From Shigella phage Tf, in sequence record OR980947: a DNA stretch of 64,000 nucleotides, one strand, 5' to 3'. Made by a program: the position numbers and the translations under genes. The notes beneath the pieces were generated by a model. That model was not told where the DNA came from, did no database searches, and saw only the letters and a program-made list of their open reading frames with translations. Shown piece by piece: positions 15,698 through 29,072 of the stretch (position 1 is its first letter; each line of letters starts with the position of its first letter).

Positions 15698-15855
15698 CCT
15701 AATAAGATTTAAAGCCAAGCTTCATTCGGATGTTGCTTTGGTATACCGCGTGTATTGTTGTACACATTGATAAAACACCTAGTAGGTGTCACGGAGAAGA
15801 GATAATATCAAGCTCTCCAAAGGTTCTAGTCACCGGATTAAACAAGACTATGCAA

Positions 15856-15876
15856 AGACCTAAATAGGTCTTTTTA
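15856..15876 (+). terminator. terminator-like hairpin inside tRNA cluster
   Basis: agacctaaataggtct + ttttt. Confidence 0.45.
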
Positions 15877-15954
15877 GAGGGCTTCTAAGGTTATTACAGC
15901 TTGTTGTGGAACCTTGTTGCTTAGGTTCTTAGAAGTTCTCTAAAAAGATTTAAT

Positions 15955-16029
15955 GGGAGATTGATGGTAATTGGTAAACCTATCTCGCTTAGAACGAGAT
16001 GTTTGAGGGTTCGAATCCCTTGTCTCCTA
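15955..16029 (+). tRNA. tRNA with Leu-type anticodon TAG but short variable region
   Basis: acceptor gggagat/gtctcct, anticodon stem tctcg/cgaga loop ctTAGaa, T-loop GGTTCGAATCC, A73, CCA encoded; only 5 nt between anticodon and T arms. Confidence 0.5.
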
Positions 16030-16039
16030 CCAAATTAAT

Positions 16040-16112
16040 GCAGGTGTAGCAAAATGGTTATGCGGCTGACTCTTAATCAGTAAGACGATGGGTTCAATTC
16101 CCTCCACCTGTA
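16040..16112 (+). tRNA. tRNA-Lys (anticodon CTT)
   Basis: paralogue of the TTT tRNA at 14806; anticodon stem ctga/tcag loop ctCTTaa; T-loop GGTTCAATTCC; CCA encoded. Confidence 0.6.
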
Positions 16113-16121
16113 CCAGACATT

Positions 16122-16194
16122 GGGGATGTAGTTTACATGGTTAAAACATAAGTTTTGCAAACTTAAGTACAGGGTTCAATTCCCTGCTTCTCCA
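16122..16194 (+). tRNA. tRNA-Ala (anticodon TGC)
   Basis: D-stem gttt/aaac, anticodon stem taagt/actta loop ttTGCaa, T-stem cagg/cctg, CCA encoded. Confidence 0.7.
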
Positions 16195-16203
16195 CCAATT
16201 AGT

Positions 16204-16275
16204 GCATCCATAGTTTAAACGGGAAAATTACAGTCTTCCAAACTGAGGTTGAGGGTTCGATTCCCTCTGGATGCT
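16204..16275 (+). tRNA. tRNA-Gly (anticodon TCC)
   Basis: perfect acceptor gcatcca/tggatgc, anticodon loop ctTCCaa, T-loop GGTTCGATTCC, CCA encoded. Confidence 0.75.
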
Positions 16276-16284
16276 CCAAACAAT

Positions 16285-16358
16285 GCTGCTTTCGTATAAT
16301 TGGCTATTACACATCCCTTGTAAGGATGGAAATGCAGGTTCGAGTCCTGTGAGCAGCA
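16285..16358 (+). tRNA. tRNA-Thr (anticodon TGT)
   Basis: acceptor gctgctt/gagcagc, anticodon stem catcc/ggatg loop ctTGTaa, T-loop GGTTCGAGTCC, CCA encoded. Confidence 0.75.
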
Positions 16359-16456
16359 CCAATTCAGAGGTCAAGTGAAAGACCGCTGGTGTCAACTGAA
16401 GACCGTAACAAATTCCACGGAGTTGAGTTAGCGGCACAACTTCAGACCTCTTTCAC

Positions 16457-16528
16457 ACTCGCTTAGTTTATATGGTAAAACATCACCCTTACAAGATGAA
16501 GAAAAAGGTTCAAGTCCTTTAGTGAGTA
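16457..16528 (+). tRNA. tRNA-Val (anticodon TAC)
   Basis: acceptor actcgct/agtgagt, anticodon loop ctTACaa, T-loop GGTTCAAGTCC, CCA encoded. Confidence 0.7.
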
Positions 16529-16532
16529 CCAT

Positions 16533-16607
16533 GTTCCAGTATCCCAATTGGCAGAGGATGCAAGCTCAAACCTTGTATTAGTGACGGTTCGAATCCGTCT
16601 TGGAACA
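16533..16607 (+). tRNA. tRNA with Leu-type anticodon CAA but short variable region
   Basis: acceptor gttccag/ttggaac, Leu-like D-loop aattggcaga, anticodon stem gcaag/cttgt loop ctCAAac, T-loop GGTTCGAATCC, A73, CCA encoded. Confidence 0.55.
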
Positions 16608-16629
16608 CCAATTTTAAGAGGCTATTTAG

Positions 16630-17187
16630 ATGAGATACTTAAAGTATGCTTCATGGATTTTCTTAGCTTTGTTAGAGCCATTCGCAGCAATCTTAGCAGT
16701 TATCTTAGCACCTTTTGTAGTTCCATTCTATAGTGAGAAGAAAGGACATCTACCTTTCGGATTCAGATGGATGGAGACATATGACAACCCAATTGATGGT
16801 GATGAAGGTCACGTTAAAAGATGGGCTAAGATTAGAAAGATTGGTAATCTTGGTGTCTATTTGCAGAGAGTTGGATGGCTCTGGAGAAACAAAGCTTATA
16901 ACTTCTCTTACCATGTGTTAGGAAGAGACGTAAAAGATGTTACTAAGTGGAAAGGTAATATCAACGTGAGTTCTGACCCTGAAGATAATCAGACAGGTTA
17001 TCTCCTAATGTGGAACAGTAATGCTTGGGGATTATTCGCTTTTGTCCCATCAATTAAAATCTTTGGTAAACAATTCTACTGGAGAATTTATGTTGGATGG
17101 AAACTAAAAAGTGTTGTCCCAGAAGAAAGAGCATTCTCAAGGGAAAGAGTTATGTTGGCATTCTTTATTCATCCACTGAGAAAGTAA
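16630..17187 (+). CDS. hypothetical membrane protein encoded inside the tRNA cluster
   Basis: ORF 185 aa; N-terminal hydrophobic segment (IFLALLEPFAAILAVILAPFVVPF); Trp/Tyr-rich. Confidence 0.45.
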   Translation: MRYLKYASWIFLALLEPFAAILAVILAPFVVPFYSEKKGHLPFGFRWMETYDNPIDGDEGHVKRWAKIRKIGNLGVYLQRVGWLWRNKAYNFSYHVLGRDVKDVTKWKGNINVSSDPEDNQTGYLLMWNSNAWGLFAFVPSIKIFGKQFYWRIYVGWKLKSVVPEERAFSRERVMLAFFIHPLRK

Positions 17188-17195
17188 AGATTTAA

Positions 17196-17268
17196 AGGGG
17201 ATTAGTTTACAAGGTTAAAACCTCGGTCTTTGAAATCGAAGAAGTTGGTTCAATTCCAACATCCCCCG
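17196..17268 (+). tRNA. tRNA-Gln (anticodon TTG)
   Basis: anticodon stem tcggt/atcga loop ctTTGaa, T-stem gttgg/ccaac, CCA encoded. Confidence 0.7.
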
Positions 17269-17273
17269 CCAAT

Positions 17274-17349
17274 GCTCCATTACTCCAATTGGCAGAGAGG
17301 CCAGACTTAAAATCTGTGTTATGTATCGGTTCGAATCCGATATGGAGTA
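17274..17349 (+). tRNA. tRNA with Leu-type anticodon TAA but short variable region
   Basis: paralogue of 16533-16607 (shared aattggcaga D-loop); anticodon stem caga/tctg loop ctTAAaa; T-loop GGTTCGAATCC; A73; CCA encoded. Confidence 0.5.
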
Positions 17350-17357
17350 CCAAATTT

Positions 17358-17430
17358 AGCGGTATAGCATAACTGGCAATGCAGCAGTCTCTGAAGCTGT
17401 CTTATTAAGGTTCAAATCCTTATGCCGCTG
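17358..17430 (+). tRNA. tRNA-Gln (anticodon CTG)
   Basis: D-stem gcat/atgc, anticodon stem gcagt/gctgt loop ctCTGaa, T-loop GGTTCAAATCC, CCA encoded. Confidence 0.7.
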
Positions 17431-17434
17431 CCAC

Positions 17435-17464
17435 TTCTAAGGGTTCTTACGAGAGTCTTTAAAT
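17435..17464 (+). promoter_or_regulatory. conserved motif cttctaagGGTTCTTACGAGagTCTTTAAAtg (copy 3)
   Basis: just upstream of tRNA-His. Confidence 0.35.
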
Positions 17465-17537
17465 GTGGCCTTATCATAAATGGTAATGACCCATGCTGTG
17501 AACATGGTCTATACGGGTTCAAATCCCGTAGGTCACC
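17465..17537 (+). tRNA. tRNA-His (anticodon GTG)
   Basis: D-stem tcat/atga, anticodon stem ccatg/catgg loop ctGTGaa, T-loop GGTTCAAATCC, C73, CCA encoded. Confidence 0.75.
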
Positions 17538-17545
17538 CCAATTTA

Positions 17546-17620
17546 TAGTCCAAGTAGCTTATATGGTTAAAGCGCGTGTCTGAAAAACATGAGAAGAGGG
17601 TTCAAATCCCACTGGACTAC
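17546..17620 (+). tRNA. tRNA-Phe (anticodon GAA)
   Basis: perfect acceptor tagtcca/tggacta, anticodon stem cgtgt/acatg loop ctGAAaa, T-loop GGTTCAAATCC; D region slightly irregular. Confidence 0.6.
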
Positions 17621-17638
17621 CAATTTCAAAGGTGCTTA

Positions 17639-18373
17639 ATGAAAGAGATGACAGGACAAGGTAAGGAGATTTTTAATCTCTTAAAAACCGGTAAAGGGTT
17701 CTCTAACCCGCTTATTACTGGTGCAGCAGTTCTCGGTGGAACCGTAGCTGCTTCTACATCACTTGTAAGCTCTATTAGTTCTGTAACAGACCCTACAATG
17801 AAGGAGAAACTTGTTGCTGCTGGACTTACAACAGCCCTTCTAAACAGCTTTACAACAAGCCTGACAAGTACTACAGCAACTACTAAGACCCTAACAGACT
17901 ATGGTCAAAAGTCTATTGATGAGTTTTCATCACGTATGCAGGTAGCAAAGGGATACTCCAATGTTATGGGTGCAGCAGGAGAACAAGTTGGTTGTACACC
18001 ATTCAGTGGTATCATGGGTGTTGCTACAGAGTATGGTCAAAAAGCTATTGACATGATGAACAGTGCACTAGATAGTGTTAACGATGTATTAAGTGACTTA
18101 CAAGACGCTATTGACAAGGGTCTTGATACTGTTTCTGATTTAGCTAACCAAGCTGTCAGTAAGATTAATGAAGGTATCTCGAAGATTACAGCTTATGCAG
18201 ATGAAGTTGTGCAGATGATTGAAGAAGAAGCTGCCCTTATTGCAGAGTACCTTAAAACGAATATCAATGGGTTCTTAGCAGGTATCTTACCAGACTGGTT
18301 TGATGATGCTTGTAAAACTGGTGTAATTGACACTATTGCAACACCAGAAATGAAGAACGCATTACAGAAATAA
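17639..18373 (+). CDS. hypothetical protein, Ser/Thr/Ala-rich (start trimmed to avoid tRNA-Phe)
   Basis: ORF-track ORF 17576-18373 overlaps tRNA-Phe; in-frame ATG at 17639 preceded by aaaggtg. Confidence 0.5.
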   Translation: MKEMTGQGKEIFNLLKTGKGFSNPLITGAAVLGGTVAASTSLVSSISSVTDPTMKEKLVAAGLTTALLNSFTTSLTSTTATTKTLTDYGQKSIDEFSSRMQVAKGYSNVMGAAGEQVGCTPFSGIMGVATEYGQKAIDMMNSALDSVNDVLSDLQDAIDKGLDTVSDLANQAVSKINEGISKITAYADEVVQMIEEEAALIAEYLKTNINGFLAGILPDWFDDACKTGVIDTIATPEMKNALQK

Positions 18374-18375
18374 AT

Positions 18376-18465
18376 GGAAGATTAACCCTAAAAGGTAAGG
18401 GAGCAGTTTGCTAAACTGCCAGTAGCTGAGAAATCGGTGTACCAGTTCAAGTCTGGTATCTTCCT
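18376..18465 (+). tRNA. tRNA-Ser (anticodon GCT), long variable arm
   Basis: 90 nt; acceptor ggaagat/atcttcc, anticodon stem gcagt/actgc loop ttGCTaa, long variable arm, T-arm accag-TTCAAGT-ctggt, CCA encoded. Confidence 0.7.
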
Positions 18466-18472
18466 CCAATTT

Positions 18473-18545
18473 GAATCCGTGACAGAAACGGCTATGTGCC
18501 TGTCTGCAAAACAGGTTTATAAGGGTTCGAGTCCCTTCGGATTCT
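18473..18545 (+). tRNA. tRNA-Cys (anticodon GCA)
   Basis: acceptor gaatccg/cggattc, anticodon stem cctgt/acagg loop ctGCAaa, T-arm aaggg-TTCGAGT-ccctt, CCA encoded. Confidence 0.7.
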
Positions 18546-18593
18546 CCAAGTTATTTTACTCTCTCTCAATTAAAATAATAATAATGCCCTGCT

Positions 18594-18655
18594 ATAAGTA
18601 TTCTTCCTTTCGCTACCGAAGAGTATTTTTAGACAGGGCTTTTTTACAGAGTTAT
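18594..18655 (+). terminator. terminator ending the tRNA cluster
   Basis: long hairpin gccctg...cagggc followed by ttttttac, directly after tRNA-Cys. Confidence 0.5.
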
Positions 18656-18770
18656 ACTTTATAGGAAGACTTATACAGTATGTCTCTGACGTACATTGTG
18701 GTTTCTCCTTGACGGTCTCTGTGCCGTCTTTTTTAAGGGGAAACAGTATTAATTATTTGGAGAAAACATA

Positions 18771-26747: not shown

Positions 26748-27145
26748 GACTCTTAAACAGACACAGCTTTGTAGTAAAGCGTAAAGTCTCTGAAGACGGT
26801 TATTATAACGATGATGGTGATTGGGTAGCTTCACAAGATGTTGTAGAGGTTAACTGTAAAGGTAATATCCAGCCATATATCAAAGGTTCTGTAAAGAACG
26901 GTACACAGATTGCTTTACCGGAAGGTATTAGACTTACTGATACAAGAATCCTGTATACCACATATAAACTTAGAACTTCAGATGATGTAGAGTGGAATGA
27001 GTCTGACATTGTTATGATTGATGGTCATGAGTATGAAGTATTTATGACTATGGATTGGTCACAGCAATTAGCCCATACGTCCCATTATGAATATATCATT
27101 ATTAGAAGGGATAAAATGAATGCAGTTAGAAACAGCAGAACTTGA
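26744..27145 (+). CDS. hypothetical neck protein
   Basis: ORF; overlapping stop/start. Confidence 0.4.
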   Translation: MRLLNRHSFVVKRKVSEDGYYNDDGDWVASQDVVEVNCKGNIQPYIKGSVKNGTQIALPEGIRLTDTRILYTTYKLRTSDDVEWNESDIVMIDGHEYEVFMTMDWSQQLAHTSHYEYIIIRRDKMNAVRNSRT

Positions 27146-27719: not shown

Positions 27720-29072
27720 ATGTGGAATCCAATTGTTAATGTAGATATTACATTGAACACCGCAGGAACTACAAGAGAAGGTTTTGGGCTACCACTATTT
27801 TTAGCTTCAACAGATAACTTTGAAGAAAGAGTCCGTGGTTACACTTCCTTAACTGAAGTTGCTGAAGATTTCGATGAGAGGTCTGCTGCATATAAGGCTG
27901 CTAAACAACTTTGGAGTCAGACTCCTAAAGTAACTCAGCTTTATATTGGTAGACGTGCTATGCAGTACACTGTATCAATTCCTGATGCCGTTACTGAGAG
28001 CACTGATTATTCTTTAACTGTAGCTGTGAGCGGTGGAATCTCTCAGCCATTCCAGTACACTTCACAGGCATCAGATACCGCTGAGAAGGTGTTACAGCAG
28101 ATTAAAACACAGATTGAAGCAGAACCTTCTGTAAAAGACCTTGTTACTGTCAATGTAACTGGTACTGGTGGTTCAGCGACAATGGTAATCACCAAAGCTG
28201 GTGTGAACGACTTCGTGAAGGTTACTACTACAGCACAAACAGTGTCAATTGCAAGTACAACTGCTGACACAGCATCGACTGCTCTGGCAGCTATTGAAGC
28301 TTATTCAACTGACTGGTATTTCATTGCAGCGGAAGACAGAACTCAACAGTTTGTCTTAGCAATGGCTTCTGAGATTCAAGCTCGTAAGAAGATTTTCTTT
28401 ACAGCTAACTCTGATGTAACAGCCCTACAAGGTACAGAATTAGCCAGTGCAAATGATGTTCCAGCACAGCTTGCTAAGAATATGTACACTCGTACAGTTT
28501 GCTTGTGGCATCACACAGCAGCAGAGGATTATCCAGAAATGGCATACATTGCTTATGGTGCTCCATATGATGCAGGTTCGATTGCTTGGGGTAATGCACA
28601 GTTAACTGGTGTAGCTGCTTCTCTACAGCCAGCTAATAAGAGACCTCTGACAAGTATTCAGAAGTCAGCTTTAGATGCACGTCACTGTAACTTTATTGAC
28701 CTTGATGGTGGTGTTCCAGTGGTTCGTAGAGGGATTACTTCTGGTGGGGAATGGATTGATATCATCCGTGGTGTTGACTGGTTAGAATCAGACCTGAAAA
28801 CTTCTCTGAGAGACTTGCTAATTAACCAGAAGGGTGGTAAGATTACTTATGATGATACTGGTATTACCCGTATTCGTCAAGTCATTGAAACCTCTCTGCA
28901 AAGAGCAGTCAACAGAAACTTCCTGTCATCTTACACAGTTAATGTTCCTAAAGCCTCTCAAGTTGCTTTGGCAGACAAGAAAGCACGTATCCTGAAAGAC
29001 GTTACCTTCGCAGGTGTCTTAGCAGGGGCTATCTTGGATGTTGACTTGAAAGGTACAGTGGCTTACGAATAA
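27720..29072 (+). CDS. tail sheath protein (putative)
   Basis: 450 aa ORF immediately upstream of a ~150 aa tube-sized ORF and the tape measure gene; Mu/P2-like order. Confidence 0.5.
   Translation: MWNPIVNVDITLNTAGTTREGFGLPLFLASTDNFEERVRGYTSLTEVAEDFDERSAAYKAAKQLWSQTPKVTQLYIGRRAMQYTVSIPDAVTESTDYSLTVAVSGGISQPFQYTSQASDTAEKVLQQIKTQIEAEPSVKDLVTVNVTGTGGSATMVITKAGVNDFVKVTTTAQTVSIASTTADTASTALAAIEAYSTDWYFIAAEDRTQQFVLAMASEIQARKKIFFTANSDVTALQGTELASANDVPAQLAKNMYTRTVCLWHHTAAEDYPEMAYIAYGAPYDAGSIAWGNAQLTGVAASLQPANKRPLTSIQKSALDARHCNFIDLDGGVPVVRRGITSGGEWIDIIRGVDWLESDLKTSLRDLLINQKGGKITYDDTGITRIRQVIETSLQRAVNRNFLSSYTVNVPKASQVALADKKARILKDVTFAGVLAGAILDVDLKGTVAYE

What the first reader, a model, noticed from the sequence alone, without database searches (positions are those of the whole stretch)
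15955..17349. Three tRNAs with leucine-type anticodons but short variable regions
The tRNAs at 15955-16029 (TAG), 16533-16607 (CAA) and 17274-17349 (TAA) have well-formed acceptor, anticodon and T-arms, a Leu-like D-loop (aattggcaga in two of them), discriminator A73 and encoded CCA. They appear to have only 5-8 nt between the anticodon and T-arms instead of the long variable arm typical of bacterial tRNA-Leu. If the manual fold is right, the phage supplies type-I-shaped Leu isoacceptors for UUA/UUG/CUA codons, which would be unusual.
Basis: inference. Interest (0 to 1): 0.55.

Follow-up and report, generated by a model that had tools for sequence, protein, structure and literature searches.

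The report
Short-armed leucine tRNAs in a phage
A Felix O1-type phage of E. coli/Salmonella carries three leucine tRNA genes that keep every feature the bacterial leucine-charging enzyme is known to read but lack the long extra arm that bacterial leucine tRNAs normally have, and this arm-less form turns out to be common in phages and rare in bacteria.

Summary
ARAGORN and Rfam call three tRNA-Leu genes at 15955-16032 (UAG), 16533-16610 (CAA) and 17274-17352 (UAA). Each is 75-76 nt before its encoded CCA, with only 5, 6 and 7 nt between the anticodon and T arms. The window is a Felixounavirus. The same genes were listed as tRNA-Leu for Felix O1 in 2010, with no comment on their shape.

They are not decayed genes. 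They keep the tRNA-Leu body: a 3-bp D stem, an 11-nt D loop with A14, A15, G18G19 and A20a, plus U48 and A73. That is the published E. coli LeuRS identity set minus the arm.

In 98 distinct short viral Leu tRNAs the cloverleaf is kept by compensatory changes in all 20 pairs. In an unbiased pattern scan, 32 of 112 viral Leu tRNA genes were short against 3 of 88 bacterial ones. Ser and Tyr tRNAs in the same loci keep their arms.

The most likely reading is that these are functional Leu isoacceptors for UUA, UUG and CUA/CUN, codons the AT-rich phage over-uses, charged by host LeuRS. Charging is inferred, not shown: E. coli LeuRS failed to charge the Streptomyces type I tRNA-Leu in vitro.

Seen in passing in the same cluster: a Ro60 orthologue, a tmRNA-tag-like element and odd tRNA-like RNAs.

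The parts
15955..16032 (+). tRNA-Leu(UAG), short variable region (UGUUU), A73, encoded CCA. It has a 3-nt 8-9 connector (UGA) and a weak D stem (U10.U25, G11-C24, G12-C23, possible U13-A22). Anticodon loop CUUAGAA, with A37 where the host tRNA has G37.
   Evidence: ARAGORN. Rfam tRNA 44.7 bits. 100% identical to the Felix O1 tRNA-Leu at 26975-27052. Orthologues keep the acceptor and anticodon stems through compensatory changes, and there is a 77% identical 77-nt homologue in Tequintavirus FFH1.
16533..16610 (+). tRNA-Leu(CAA), variable region AUUAGU, D arm UCC-CAAUUGGCAGA-GGA (3 bp + 11 nt), A14, A15, G18G19, A20a, U48, A73, CCA.
   Evidence: ARAGORN. Rfam 44.0 bits. At least 99% identical in 159 phage records across Felixounavirus, Mooglevirus and Suspvirus. 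Anticodon-masked HMM 36.7 bits.
17274..17352 (+). tRNA-Leu(UAA), variable region GUUAUGU, D arm CUC-CAAUUGGCAGA-GAG, G1.U72, A73, CCA, C27.U43 mismatch.
   Evidence: ARAGORN. Rfam 47.5 bits. At least 99% identical in 215 phage records including Felix O1. Anticodon-masked HMM 42.6 bits, the best hit in the window.
13703..18548 (+). The tRNA gene cluster that holds the three Leu genes: 23 ARAGORN tRNAs plus non-canonical tRNA-like elements. The Leu genes abut their neighbours (Val ends at 16531 and Leu-CAA starts at 16533; Gln ends at 17271 and Leu-UAA starts at 17274).
   Evidence: Sigma-70-like promoters at 13647-13676 and 15056-15084.
14196..14283 (+). tRNA-Tyr(GUA), 88 nt, long variable arm retained (internal comparator).
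15610..15699 (+). tRNA-Ser(UGA), 90 nt, long variable arm retained (internal comparator).
18376..18468 (+). tRNA-Ser(GCU), 93 nt, long variable arm retained (internal comparator).

Best explanation
The three genes are functional phage-encoded leucine tRNAs that have lost the long variable arm and kept the rest of the bacterial tRNA-Leu body. They are transcribed as part of the phage tRNA cluster and processed at their closely abutting ends. [quoted passage not shown] By published biochemistry it does not require the arm.

They decode UUA/UUG (UAA), UUG (CAA) and CUA plus other CUN codons (UAG). The 39% G+C phage uses these codons two to four times more often than its host does.

The arm can be lost only in Leu. 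SerRS and bacterial TyrRS use the arm as an identity element, which is why Ser and Tyr tRNAs of the same cluster keep it.

Shown here: the shape, the identity nucleotides, conservation, covariation, codon usage and the phage-versus-bacterium distribution. Inferred: transcription, leucylation by host LeuRS and use on the ribosome.
For: 1. Shape and anticodons: ARAGORN and Rfam.

2. D-arm geometry: the CAA and UAA tRNAs have the same 3-bp stem plus 11-nt loop as E. coli leuZ, leuW and leuX (loci L001-L003).

3. Identity set: all positions listed for E. coli LeuRS in the identity review PMC9976931 are present in all three tRNAs. These are A73, A15-U48, G18G19, A20a, U8:A14 and U54:A58. The same review states that the long arm is not required and that truncated tRNA-Leu lacking it stays active.

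4. Specificity of the signature: an 11-nt D loop matching .AA..GG.A.. together with U48 and A73 occurs in 82 of 112 short Leu tRNAs, 192 of 249 long Leu tRNAs and 0 of 1360 other tRNAs.

5. Family membership: an anticodon-masked HMM built from 90 short viral Leu tRNAs, none from Ounavirinae, ranks exactly these three genes first in the window.

6. Covariation: across 98 distinct short viral Leu tRNAs, 96.6% of cells are paired against 57% in shuffles, and all 20 pairs show compensatory changes. A14, A15, U48 and A73 are invariant although the search pattern did not force them.

7. Conservation: the Leu genes are better conserved than their surroundings. They are at least 99% identical in 159 (CAA) and 215 (UAA) records, against 2 records for the 1.8-kb region. 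The UAG orthologues show compensatory changes.

8. Codon usage: in window ORFs UUA is 28.6%, CUA 11.8% and CUU 26.6% of Leu codons. In a 50-kb E. coli sample the values are 11.0%, 2.4% and 12.4%.

9. Arm loss is specific to Leu: 101 of 104 viral Ser tRNAs have long arms and 44 of 45 viral Tyr tRNAs keep an extended variable region.

10. Independent classifier: tRNAscan-SE isotype models score Leu highest for all three orthologues in phage Sf14 (PMC12482277).
Against: No aminoacylation or expression data exist for these tRNAs.

Fan et al. 2019 (PMC6614811) found that E. coli LeuRS did not charge the type I tRNA-Leu(CAA) of Streptomyces coelicolor and described EcLeuRS as charging only type II. 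That tRNA has C48 rather than U48, however.

Crystal structures show that the arm does contact K809 and R811 of the EcLeuRS C-terminal domain (PMC12360207), so arm loss may reduce charging efficiency.

The UAG tRNA has an irregular D arm and A37 instead of the m1G37-type G37. Its HMM score (35.9 bits) is barely above that of tRNA-Glu (34.1), and its Leu score in tRNAscan (67.4) is close to Ile2 (65.7).

The UAA tRNA has a C27.U43 mismatch and an unusually long 7-nt variable region.
Confidence: 0.75

Rival explanations
1. The tRNAs are made but are poor or non-substrates of the host LeuRS because the arm is missing. They would then act outside decoding, for example as decoys or competitors for host or phage tRNA-directed nucleases, modification enzymes or other tRNA-binding factors. 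Alternatively they are charged by another synthetase.
For: EcLeuRS failed on a Streptomyces type I tRNA-Leu. The arm contacts EcLeuRS in crystal structures. The cluster also holds clearly non-canonical tRNA-like RNAs and a Ro60 orthologue, so not every tRNA-shaped gene here need be a decoder. Anticodon loops differ from the host's at positions 32, 37 and 38.
Against: The full EcLeuRS identity set is conserved, including A15-U48 and A73, which a decoy would not need.

None of the three has G3.U70 (Ala). None has a long arm or G73 (Ser). Synthetases that read the anticodon would not accept NAG or YAA anticodons.

The anticodons match the Leu codons the phage over-uses. Three isoacceptors with complementary decoding are kept together across genera.
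Confidence: 0.12
2. Arm loss is itself adaptive. It would make the phage's Leu tRNAs invisible to a nuclease or defence system, of the host or the phage, that recognises type II tRNAs or the tRNA-Leu extra arm. Phage Leu decoding would then survive when host tRNA-Leu is cut. This concerns why the arm was lost and is compatible with the best explanation of what the genes do.
For: Short Leu tRNAs are about 11-fold enriched in viral over bacterial contigs (32/112 against 3/88, Fisher p = 1.2e-6). They sit in tRNA-rich phage loci, with a median of 13 tRNAs per locus against 4 for long Leu tRNAs.

Several D-arm subfamilies exist. Two of them also have long-armed members, which suggests repeated loss.

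Phage tRNAs are known to evade tRNA-targeting defences (PMC10264068 and others). Human SLFN11 cleaves type II tRNAs (cited). From my own memory, not checked here: T4 infection cleaves a host tRNA-Leu.
Against: No bacterial system that targets the Leu arm specifically turned up. [quoted passage not shown]

Relaxed constraint explains the Leu specificity without any defence: LeuRS is the one type II synthetase that tolerates arm loss. Many phages, T5 and PD06 among them, keep long-armed Leu.
Confidence: 0.15
3. They are decaying tRNA pseudogenes, or type II tRNAs that the reader misfolded.
For: Rfam scores (44-47.5 bits) are in the lower part of the range for this cluster. The stems contain mismatches (U10.U25 in UAG, C27.U43 in UAA).
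Against: A length of 75-76 nt excludes a long arm. Identity is near-perfect across hundreds of phages. Compensatory changes occur in orthologues and in the wider family. All universal and Leu-specific nucleotides are intact.
Confidence: 0.03

Closest known systems
E. coli tRNA-Leu isoacceptors leuZ (UAA), leuX (CAA), leuW (UAG), which are type II
   Same: Same anticodons. Same D arm (3-bp stem, 11-nt loop with A14 A15.. G18 G19. A20a. A22). U8, U48 and A73 are shared. G1.U72 is seen in leuZ and in two of the phage tRNAs. The T loop is UUCGAAU or UUCAAGU.
   Different: The host tRNAs are 85-87 nt with a 12-15-nt variable region that forms a stem-loop in leuZ and leuW. The phage tRNAs have 5-7 unpaired nt. 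The phage CAA and UAA tRNAs have A9 and C13; C13 was seen in 0 of 104 long Leu tRNAs and 25 of 64 short ones. Anticodon-loop positions 32, 37 and 38 differ (A37 instead of G37 in UAG, C38 in CAA).
Streptomyces coelicolor type I tRNA-Leu(CAA) (Fan et al. 2019, PMC6614811)
   Same: [quoted passage not shown] The short Leu tRNAs found here in the Actinobacteria Gordonia and Herbiconiux carry the same CCCAAUUGGCAGAGG D arm as the phage CAA tRNA; the phage UAA tRNA has UCCAAUUGGCAGAGA.
   Different: It is chromosomal, not phage-borne. Its variable loop is ACAGC (C48), not ...U48. Its own LeuRS does not use A73 and needs a particular leucine-specific domain. EcLeuRS did not charge it. The phage tRNAs keep the E. 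coli-type determinants A73 and A15-U48 and must work with an enterobacterial LeuRS.
Animal mitochondrial tRNA-Leu(UUR/CUN)
   Same: A type I shape with Leu anticodons. A73 and A14 are identity elements.
   Different: Mitochondrial tRNAs have degenerate D/T loops and a dedicated mitochondrial LeuRS. The phage tRNAs have fully canonical elbows (G18G19, U54U55C56).
Engineered minimal E. coli tRNA-Leu lacking the variable arm (Larkin et al. 2002; Asahara et al. 1998), as summarised in PMC9976931
   Same: The arm is removed and the D/T tertiary core and A73 are retained. These constructs remain LeuRS substrates, which is the mechanistic precedent for the phage tRNAs.
   Different: They are laboratory constructs, some also lacking the anticodon arm. 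The phage genes are natural, conserved and carry complete anticodon arms. I could not read the primary paper.
Long-armed tRNA-Leu of phage T5 (UAG, 85 nt)
   Same: A phage-encoded Leu isoacceptor in a large tRNA cluster of a virulent coliphage, with the same anticodon as the window's UAG tRNA.
   Different: T5 keeps the long arm. Its congener Tequintavirus FFH1 has a 77-nt short version that is 77% identical to the Felix O1-type UAG tRNA.

Membership tests
Bacterial tRNA-Leu (E. coli LeuRS identity set) | Leucine anticodon (NAG or YAA) | tested here: met
   UAG, CAA and UAA by ARAGORN, each in a 7-nt loop with U33.
Bacterial tRNA-Leu (E. coli LeuRS identity set) | Discriminator A73 | tested here: met
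   A73 followed by CCA in all three. A73 in 103 of 106 short viral Leu tRNAs.
Bacterial tRNA-Leu (E. coli LeuRS identity set) | Tertiary pairs U8:A14 and A15-U48 (trans-Levitt pair) | tested here: met
   U8, A14, A15 and U48 are present in all three. A14, A15 and U48 are invariant in alignment A1, although the search pattern did not impose them. This is presence of the nucleotides only; the 3D pairs were not modelled.
Bacterial tRNA-Leu (E. coli LeuRS identity set) | G18G19 and A20a placed in an 11-nt D loop closed by a 3-bp stem | tested here: met
   The match is exact for CAA and UAA. For UAG the loop sequence UAAUUGGUAAA fits, but the stem has a U10.U25 mismatch and the 8-9 connector has an extra nucleotide. 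The signature is found in 0 of 1360 non-Leu tRNAs.
Bacterial tRNA-Leu (E. coli LeuRS identity set) | Canonical T loop (U54, U55, C56, A58) for the D/T elbow | tested here: met
   UUCGAAU in all three.
Bacterial tRNA-Leu (class II / type II tRNA) | Long variable arm (more than 10 nt, usually a stem-loop) | tested here: not met
   5, 6 and 7 nt. They are therefore not type II tRNAs, although they carry the rest of the tRNA-Leu body.
Bacterial tRNA-Leu (functional) | Leucylation by LeuRS and use in translation | not testable with these tools
   Needs aminoacylation assays or charged-tRNA sequencing. Published data point both ways.
Type I tRNA-Leu (S. coelicolor CAA; mitochondria) | Leu anticodon combined with a short variable loop in an otherwise complete cloverleaf | tested here: met
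   The 6- and 7-nt loops of CAA and UAA are longer than the 4-5 nt usual in type I tRNAs.
   The anticodon-masked HMM gives 42.6, 36.7 and 35.9 bits, the three best hits in the 64-kb window. The margin for UAG over tRNA-Glu (34.1) is small.
   All 20 pairs show both-side changes. 96.6% of cells are paired against 57% in shuffles and 36-47% with slid partners. Compensatory changes also occur among UAG orthologues.
tRNA pseudogene | Loss of invariant nucleotides, broken stems, relaxed conservation | tested here: not met
   The invariant nucleotides are intact. The genes are at least 99% identical in 159-215 phage records while the flanks diverge.

The most novel reading that the evidence does not exclude
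Loss of the long arm from tRNA-Leu is a recurrent, Leu-specific hallmark of phage-encoded tRNAs, not an oddity of one phage. It implies two things.

First, enterobacterial LeuRS charges type I-shaped tRNA-Leu in vivo, contrary to the generalisation drawn from the Streptomyces work.

Second, the arm-less form is selected because it escapes factors that recognise type II tRNAs or the Leu arm, such as nucleases of defence systems or phage-induced cleavage of host tRNA-Leu. The phage would then keep a private, attack-resistant set of Leu decoders.
Probability: 0.15. Interest if true: 0.75.

Novelty: new member of a known kind. Interest (0 to 1): 0.5.

Why it matters
Textbooks and recent primary work treat the long variable arm as a defining trait of bacterial-type tRNA-Leu. 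[quoted passage not shown]

If the Felix O1-type tRNAs are charged in infected E. coli or Salmonella, both statements need revising. The arm's role in LeuRS recognition, editing, modification and ribosome function could then be tested with natural arm-less substrates in the best-studied bacterial system.

The contrast in distribution (about 29% of matched viral Leu tRNA genes against about 3% of bacterial ones, with Ser and Tyr arms always kept) is a simple natural readout of which synthetases need the arm. It also offers a possible marker of phage origin for tRNA genes.

Practically, annotation pipelines sometimes label such genes tRNA-OTHER or pseudo.

Tried and rejected
Literature. Four full-text searches for any description of short-armed phage tRNA-Leu found none. 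The Felix O1 genome paper lists the three genes without comment, and the Sf14 tRNA paper never mentions the variable region. Larkin et al. 2002 could not be opened, so I rely on the review's summary of it.

Identity by overall similarity. Global pairwise identity of the three tRNAs to other tRNAs was uninformative. CAA and UAA are each other's best match at 75%, but UAG has no clear nearest type. I used structural signatures and a profile instead.

Misfolded type II tRNA. Rejected on length.

A hidden type II Leu gene in the cluster. The extra Rfam tRNA hit at 14289-14371 is an Asp(GUC) homologue with an expanded loop, not a Leu gene.

Defence link. I looked for a bacterial nuclease specific for type II tRNAs or the Leu arm. 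The bacterial Schlafen paper reports cleavage of the anticodon arm without such specificity.

T5. I expected short Leu there as well, but T5 Leu(UAG) is long. FFH1 in the same genus is short.

Survey limits. The pattern demands TTGGYANA, YTYAR and GTTCRANTC. Scans stop at 120 stretches, 13-32 tRNA-Lys genes match by a frame shift and were removed, and IMG/VR contains host tRNAs at prophage ends. The percentages are therefore rough.

Side issue. Sequence-only searches for the 471-aa ORF missed Ro60 (Pfam TROVE, NCBIfam, PDB phmmer and hmmsearch). Only the fold search found it.

The tmRNA-tag-like element could not be resolved into a complete tmRNA. ARAGORN calls none, and all Rfam tmRNA-family hits fall below their gathering scores.
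Full report
WHAT IS THERE

The window is a Felix O1-like myovirus (genus Felixounavirus, subfamily Ounavirinae). The 1.8 kb around the finding is 97-98% identical to many Escherichia and Salmonella phages.

ARAGORN finds 23 tRNA genes on the + strand between 13703 and 18548. Three of them are tRNA-Leu: UAG at 15955-16032, CAA at 16533-16610 and UAA at 17274-17352. With their encoded CCA they are 78, 78 and 79 nt long. Rfam's tRNA model scores them at 44.7, 44.0 and 47.5 bits against a gathering score of 29.

ARAGORN's structure strings give a 7-bp acceptor stem, a 5-bp anticodon stem with a 7-nt loop, and a 5-bp T stem with a 7-nt loop. The CAA and UAA tRNAs have a 3-bp D stem closing an 11-nt loop. 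Only 5 (UGUUU), 6 (AUUAGU) and 7 (GUUAUGU) nucleotides lie between the anticodon and T stems. The discriminator is A73 in all three.

A long arm is excluded by length alone. In the same cluster tRNA-Tyr (88 nt) and both tRNA-Ser (90 and 93 nt) do carry long arms.

The UAG tRNA is the least regular. It has three nucleotides (UGA) instead of two between the acceptor and D stems, and a U10.U25 mismatch.

THE GENES ARE KNOWN, THE SHAPE IS NOT DISCUSSED

The UAG and UAA genes are 100% identical to Felix O1. The 2010 genome paper lists Leu TAG (26975-27052), Leu CAA (27976-28053) and Leu TAA (28906-28984) from tRNAscan-SE, and says nothing about the variable region (PMC3185647).

A 2025 computational study of the tRNAs of the related phage Sf14 reports that tRNAscan-SE isotype models score Leu highest for all three orthologues. 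The scores are 67.4, 49.1 and 60.2. For UAG, Ile2 (65.7) and Lys (63.4) are close behind. That paper never mentions the variable arm (PMC12482277).

Four full-text searches found no description of short-armed phage tRNA-Leu.

THEY ARE tRNA-Leu BODIES MINUS THE ARM

E. coli leuZ, leuW and leuX were fetched as L001-L003 and parsed by the same program. They have the same D-arm geometry as the phage CAA and UAA tRNAs: a 3-bp stem and an 11-nt loop reading N-A14-A15-N-N-G18-G19-N-A20a-N-A22.

The identity review by Giege and Eriani lists the elements used by E. coli LeuRS. They are A73, the A15-U48 trans-Levitt pair, G18G19 and A20a in the D loop, U8:A14, and the G18:U55, G19-C56 and U54:A58 elbow contacts. 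The review states that neither the anticodon nor the long arm is crucial. It also states that truncated tRNA-Leu lacking the arm stays active as long as A73 and the D/T interactions are intact (PMC9976931). Every one of these nucleotides is present in all three phage tRNAs.

An 11-nt D loop matching .AA..GG.A.., together with U48 and A73, occurs in the following proportions:
- 192 of 249 long Leu tRNAs
- 82 of 112 short Leu tRNAs
- 0 of 1360 tRNAs of other types

No alternative identity fits. None of the three has G3.U70 (Ala). None has G73 or a long arm (Ser). Synthetases that read the anticodon would not accept NAG or YAA.

THEY BELONG TO A LARGE PHAGE-BORNE FAMILY UNDER SELECTION

Short Leu tRNAs of the same design occur in several unrelated phage groups:
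- Erwinia phage phiEa21-4 (Kolesnikvirus): CAA, AAG and UAA
- Aeromonas phage AhP_Mru1 (Demerecviridae): UAG, CAA and UAA
- Lactobacillus phage LpeD (Herelleviridae): UAG, UAA and CAA
- Tequintavirus FFH1: UAG, 77 nt and 77% identical to the window's UAG tRNA

T5 itself has an 85-nt Leu(UAG).

I aligned 98 distinct short viral Leu tRNAs as alignment A1. On the cloverleaf with a 3-bp D stem, 96.6% of cells are paired. The controls give 57% for shuffled partners and 36-47% for partners slid by 1-3 columns. All 20 pairs show changes on both sides, and the covariation score is 1.03 against 0.24.

A14, A15, U48 and A73 are invariant in that alignment although the search pattern did not impose them. 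In the wider set of 106 short sequences A73 holds in 103. G18, G19, A20a, U33, A35 and the T-loop bases were imposed by the pattern, so their invariance says nothing.

A profile HMM was built from 90 of these sequences, none from Ounavirinae, with the anticodon masked. It ranks the three window genes first among all hits in the 64 kb, at 42.6, 36.7 and 35.9 bits. tRNA-Glu also has a 3-bp/11-nt D arm and follows at 34.1 bits.

Within the Felix O1 group the CAA and UAA genes are at least 99% identical in 159 and 215 records. The surrounding 1.8 kb reaches that level in only 2 records.

The UAG gene varies more (87-100% identity), and it varies by compensation. Pair 27-43 is U-A or C-G. Pair 29-41 is U-A, A-U or G-C. 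Pair 31-39 is G-C or C-G. Acceptor pairs 2-71 and 4-69 are also swapped in FFH1. These are not pseudogenes.

COMMON IN PHAGES, RARE IN BACTERIA, SPECIFIC TO LEU

One pattern that accepts both short and long spacing (TTGGYANA N9-10 YTYAR N14-33 GTTCRANTC) was run on viral contigs and on one genome per bacterial species. Each scan stopped at 120 stretches. tRNA-Lys genes that match by a frame shift were removed.

The viral sample held 80 long and 32 short Leu genes (29% short). The bacterial sample held 85 long and 3 short (3.4% short). The odds ratio is 11.3 and Fisher p is 1.2e-6.

The three bacterial cases are two Actinobacteria (Gordonia, Herbiconiux) and a Planctomycetota MAG. The Actinobacteria carry the same CCCAAUUGGCAGAGG D arm as the window's CAA tRNA. 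The MAG has a cluster of three short Leu genes plus a Tyr gene.

Viral short Leu genes sit in tRNA-rich loci, with a median of 13 tRNAs per locus against 4 for long ones. Many of the long ones are probably host genes at prophage ends.

Leu gene lengths are bimodal, at 73-77 and 80-92 nt. Among the same viral loci 101 of 104 Ser tRNAs have long arms and 44 of 45 Tyr tRNAs keep an extended variable region. In the 67 loci that hold a short Leu, 60 of 61 Ser tRNAs are long and every Tyr keeps an extended variable region.

This matches the identity rules. The size of the arm is the major SerRS determinant and bacterial TyrRS also uses it, whereas E. coli LeuRS does not need it.

Short Leu tRNAs fall into at least three D-arm subfamilies, named here by positions 13, 21 and 22:
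- C-G-A, which comes with A9. The window's CAA and UAA tRNAs belong here. C13 was never seen in 104 long Leu tRNAs.
- G-U-A
- A-A-A

The last two subfamilies also have long-armed members. That suggests the arm was lost more than once.

WHAT THEY ARE FOR

In 62 long ORFs of the window (39% G+C), the shares of Leu codons compare with a 50-kb E. coli sample analysed the same way as follows:
- UUA 28.6% against 11.0%
- CUA 11.8% against 2.4%
- CUU 26.6% against 12.4%
- CUG 14.8% against 50.4%

The three anticodons therefore cover the Leu codons the phage over-uses. This is the classical codon-compensation role, which the Felix O1 paper already proposed for Leu(TTA).

WHAT IS NOT SHOWN

Charging is inferred, and published evidence cuts both ways. 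Fan et al. 2019 found that E. coli LeuRS did not charge the type I tRNA-Leu(CAA) of Streptomyces coelicolor at all. They traced the ability to a Streptomyces-type leucine-specific domain (PMC6614811).

That tRNA has the variable loop ACAGC, with C48. Its own LeuRS ignores A73, so it lacks at least one E. coli determinant that the phage tRNAs keep.

[quoted passage not shown] Arm loss may therefore cost efficiency.

I put 0.75 on functional Leu tRNAs charged by host LeuRS. I put 0.12 on a non-decoding or mischarged role and 0.03 on pseudogenes.

Why the arm was lost is a separate question. Relaxed constraint explains the Leu specificity. An adaptive escape from factors that recognise type II tRNAs is possible but unsupported. 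The bacterial Schlafen studied so far cuts anticodon arms of host and phage tRNAs alike (PMC13056530).

VERDICT

The genes themselves are long annotated. Type I tRNA-Leu is a known kind, found in mitochondria and in Streptomyces.

What is new is threefold. Enterobacterial phages, and many others, carry type I tRNA-Leu. These tRNAs retain the E. coli-type identity set. The trait is strongly enriched in phages and specific to Leu. I rate it as a new member of a known kind, interest 0.5.

SEEN IN PASSING IN THE SAME CLUSTER

1. ORF 12122-13537 is labelled 'RNA-binding protein' in PHROGs and carries DUF2828 and DUF7788. By fold it is a Ro60 orthologue. The AlphaFold2 model has pLDDT 87.8. The 12 best PDB matches are all Ro60/TROVE proteins, including the Ro60 of a Thermus phage. 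The protein has an invariant DxSxS MIDAS motif.

2. Positions 15134-15169 read GCA AAC GAC AAU GUU UUU CUG GCA GUA GCU UGA UAG, which translates to ANDNVFLAVA**. This resembles the tmRNA tag ANDENYALAA. The frame is kept by synonymous changes in five other phages: two further Ounavirinae genera, an Ackermannviridae phage, an unclassified Klebsiella phage and an N4-like Schitoviridae phage. It lies within a structured RNA that matched 744 phage records, unannotated in all but one of the sampled rows.

3. Positions 15289-15370 hold a conserved tRNA-like RNA without a D arm. It has anticodon UCU, G3.U70, A73 and CCA, with homologues in 121Q and PD06.

These items are listed separately and are only partly followed up.

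Noticed in passing
window 12122-13537 (+): A 471-aa ORF immediately upstream of the tRNA cluster, labelled 'RNA-binding protein' in PHROG 850 and carrying Pfam DUF2828 + DUF7788. By predicted fold it is a Ro60 (TROVE ring + vWA/MIDAS) orthologue. The AF2 model has pLDDT 87.8. The top 12 Foldseek PDB hits are all Ro60/TROVE proteins (Xenopus 1yvp/2i91, Deinococcus Rsr 2nvo, Thermus phage phiLo 9l5y; E from 2e-8 to 5e-7). It has an invariant DxSxS motif. Sequence-only searches missed it. Ro60 with tRNA-like Y RNAs (YrlA) is known in 22 phages (PMC4201824). Rfam found no YrlA in the tRNA cluster (13500-18700), so the partner RNA may be one of the odd tRNA-like elements nearby.
   Followed up: yes
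window 15091-15265 (+); tag-like frame 15134-15163, stops 15164-15169: A structured RNA with a tmRNA-like tag reading frame, ANDNVFLAVA** (E. coli ssrA: ANDENYALAA), downstream of the best sigma-70-like promoter of the region (15056-15084). The frame is conserved with synonymous changes in five other phages: Sf14 (ANDNVFLAVA), phiEa21-4 (ANDAQFLAVA), Vi01 (ANDNTFLAVA), Klebsiella KpV2811 (ANEEMYLAVA) and N4-like ShWW44 (ANDDVVLMAA). The stop codons lie in a hairpin, and two further hairpins show compensatory changes. blastn matched 744 phage records, unannotated in all but one of the sampled rows. Only sub-threshold Rfam tmRNA-family hits were found (16-31 bits, gathering score 47), and ARAGORN calls no tmRNA. 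Whether this is a split or permuted phage tmRNA or a mimic of the tmRNA coding domain is unresolved.
   Followed up: partly
window 15289-15370 (+): A tRNA-like RNA that ARAGORN misses (Rfam tRNA 31.2 bits when searched alone). Its acceptor stem is CGGGGCG/CGCCUCG with G3.U70, followed by A73 and CCA. It has no D arm (only UAUCUCA), an anticodon arm GCUGU-CUUCUAA-ACAGC (UCU, Arg AGA), a 23-nt extra region with a small hairpin, and a normal T arm. It sits where Sf14 has a canonical tRNA-Arg(UCU). Homologues at 87-88% identity in the jumbo phage 121Q (annotated tRNA-Leu) and in PD06 keep the stems by compensatory changes, but G3.U70 and A73 are not conserved in both. The extra region resembles the 3' part of E. 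coli ssrA (ACCGAGGAUGUAGGA).
   Followed up: partly
window 14289-14374 (+): A homologue of tRNA-Asp(GUC) whose 7-nt anticodon loop is replaced by a 15-nt loop (ACGUAAAAGGAUAUU). Rfam tRNA scores it at 44.2 bits and ARAGORN does not call it. Felix O1 lists a normal 77-nt tRNA-Asp(GTC) at the corresponding place and Si3 has a 77-nt GUC-loop version.
   Followed up: partly
window 15513-15596 (+): Another tRNA-like element (tRNA-Sec model 22 bits) with a good acceptor stem and T arm but a 9-nt 'anticodon' loop, CUUCCAACA. It may be a degenerate Trp(CCA) or Gly(UCC) gene. The window has no canonical tRNA-Trp, tRNA-Asp or tRNA-Arg.
   Followed up: no
window ORFs overall; tRNA cluster 13703-18548: AGA is used 17.7 times per 1000 codons in phage ORFs against 2.9 in the E. 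coli sample. Yet no canonical tRNA-Arg(UCU) is present. Only the D-armless element at 15289-15370 carries that anticodon.
   Followed up: partly
L005:5124-5202 (Salmonella phage Si3) and L006:5999-6076 (phage FG1m): Chimeric Leu tRNA genes formed by recombination between the CAA and UAA paralogues. Si3 joins the 5' part of CAA to the rest of UAA at the shared D loop. FG1m joins CAA to the 3' end of UAA in the T loop. Both events delete the intervening region, which in the window holds the DUF7338 ORF (16630-17187) and tRNA-Gln(UUG), and both leave acceptor-stem mismatches.
   Followed up: partly
window 13868-13892, 14035-14059, 14432-14456, 14522-14546, with partners near 14091, 14505 and 14650: Four copies of the motif CAGAAGACC(N5-6)CAGCAA. 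At least three are followed some 50-110 nt later by GGUCUGG, which suggests repeated hairpin-closed spacer RNAs between tRNAs.
   Followed up: no
window 14658-14801, 15249-15283, 15869-15948: Long inverted repeats (17-22-nt arms). Each ends in ...AAAGAU(A/U)... a few bases before the first tRNA or tRNA-like gene of a sub-cluster (Lys at 14806, the tRNA-like gene at 15289, Leu-UAG at 15955). They may be processing or termination structures.
   Followed up: no
window 16630-17187 (+) and 17639-18373 (+): Two protein genes embedded in the tRNA cluster. One is DUF7338 (185 aa), annotated as a membrane protein or holin in relatives. The other is DUF7217 (244 aa). Felix O1 has a tRNA-Arg(ACG) gene in the CAA-to-Gln interval where the window has the DUF7338 ORF.
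   Followed up: no
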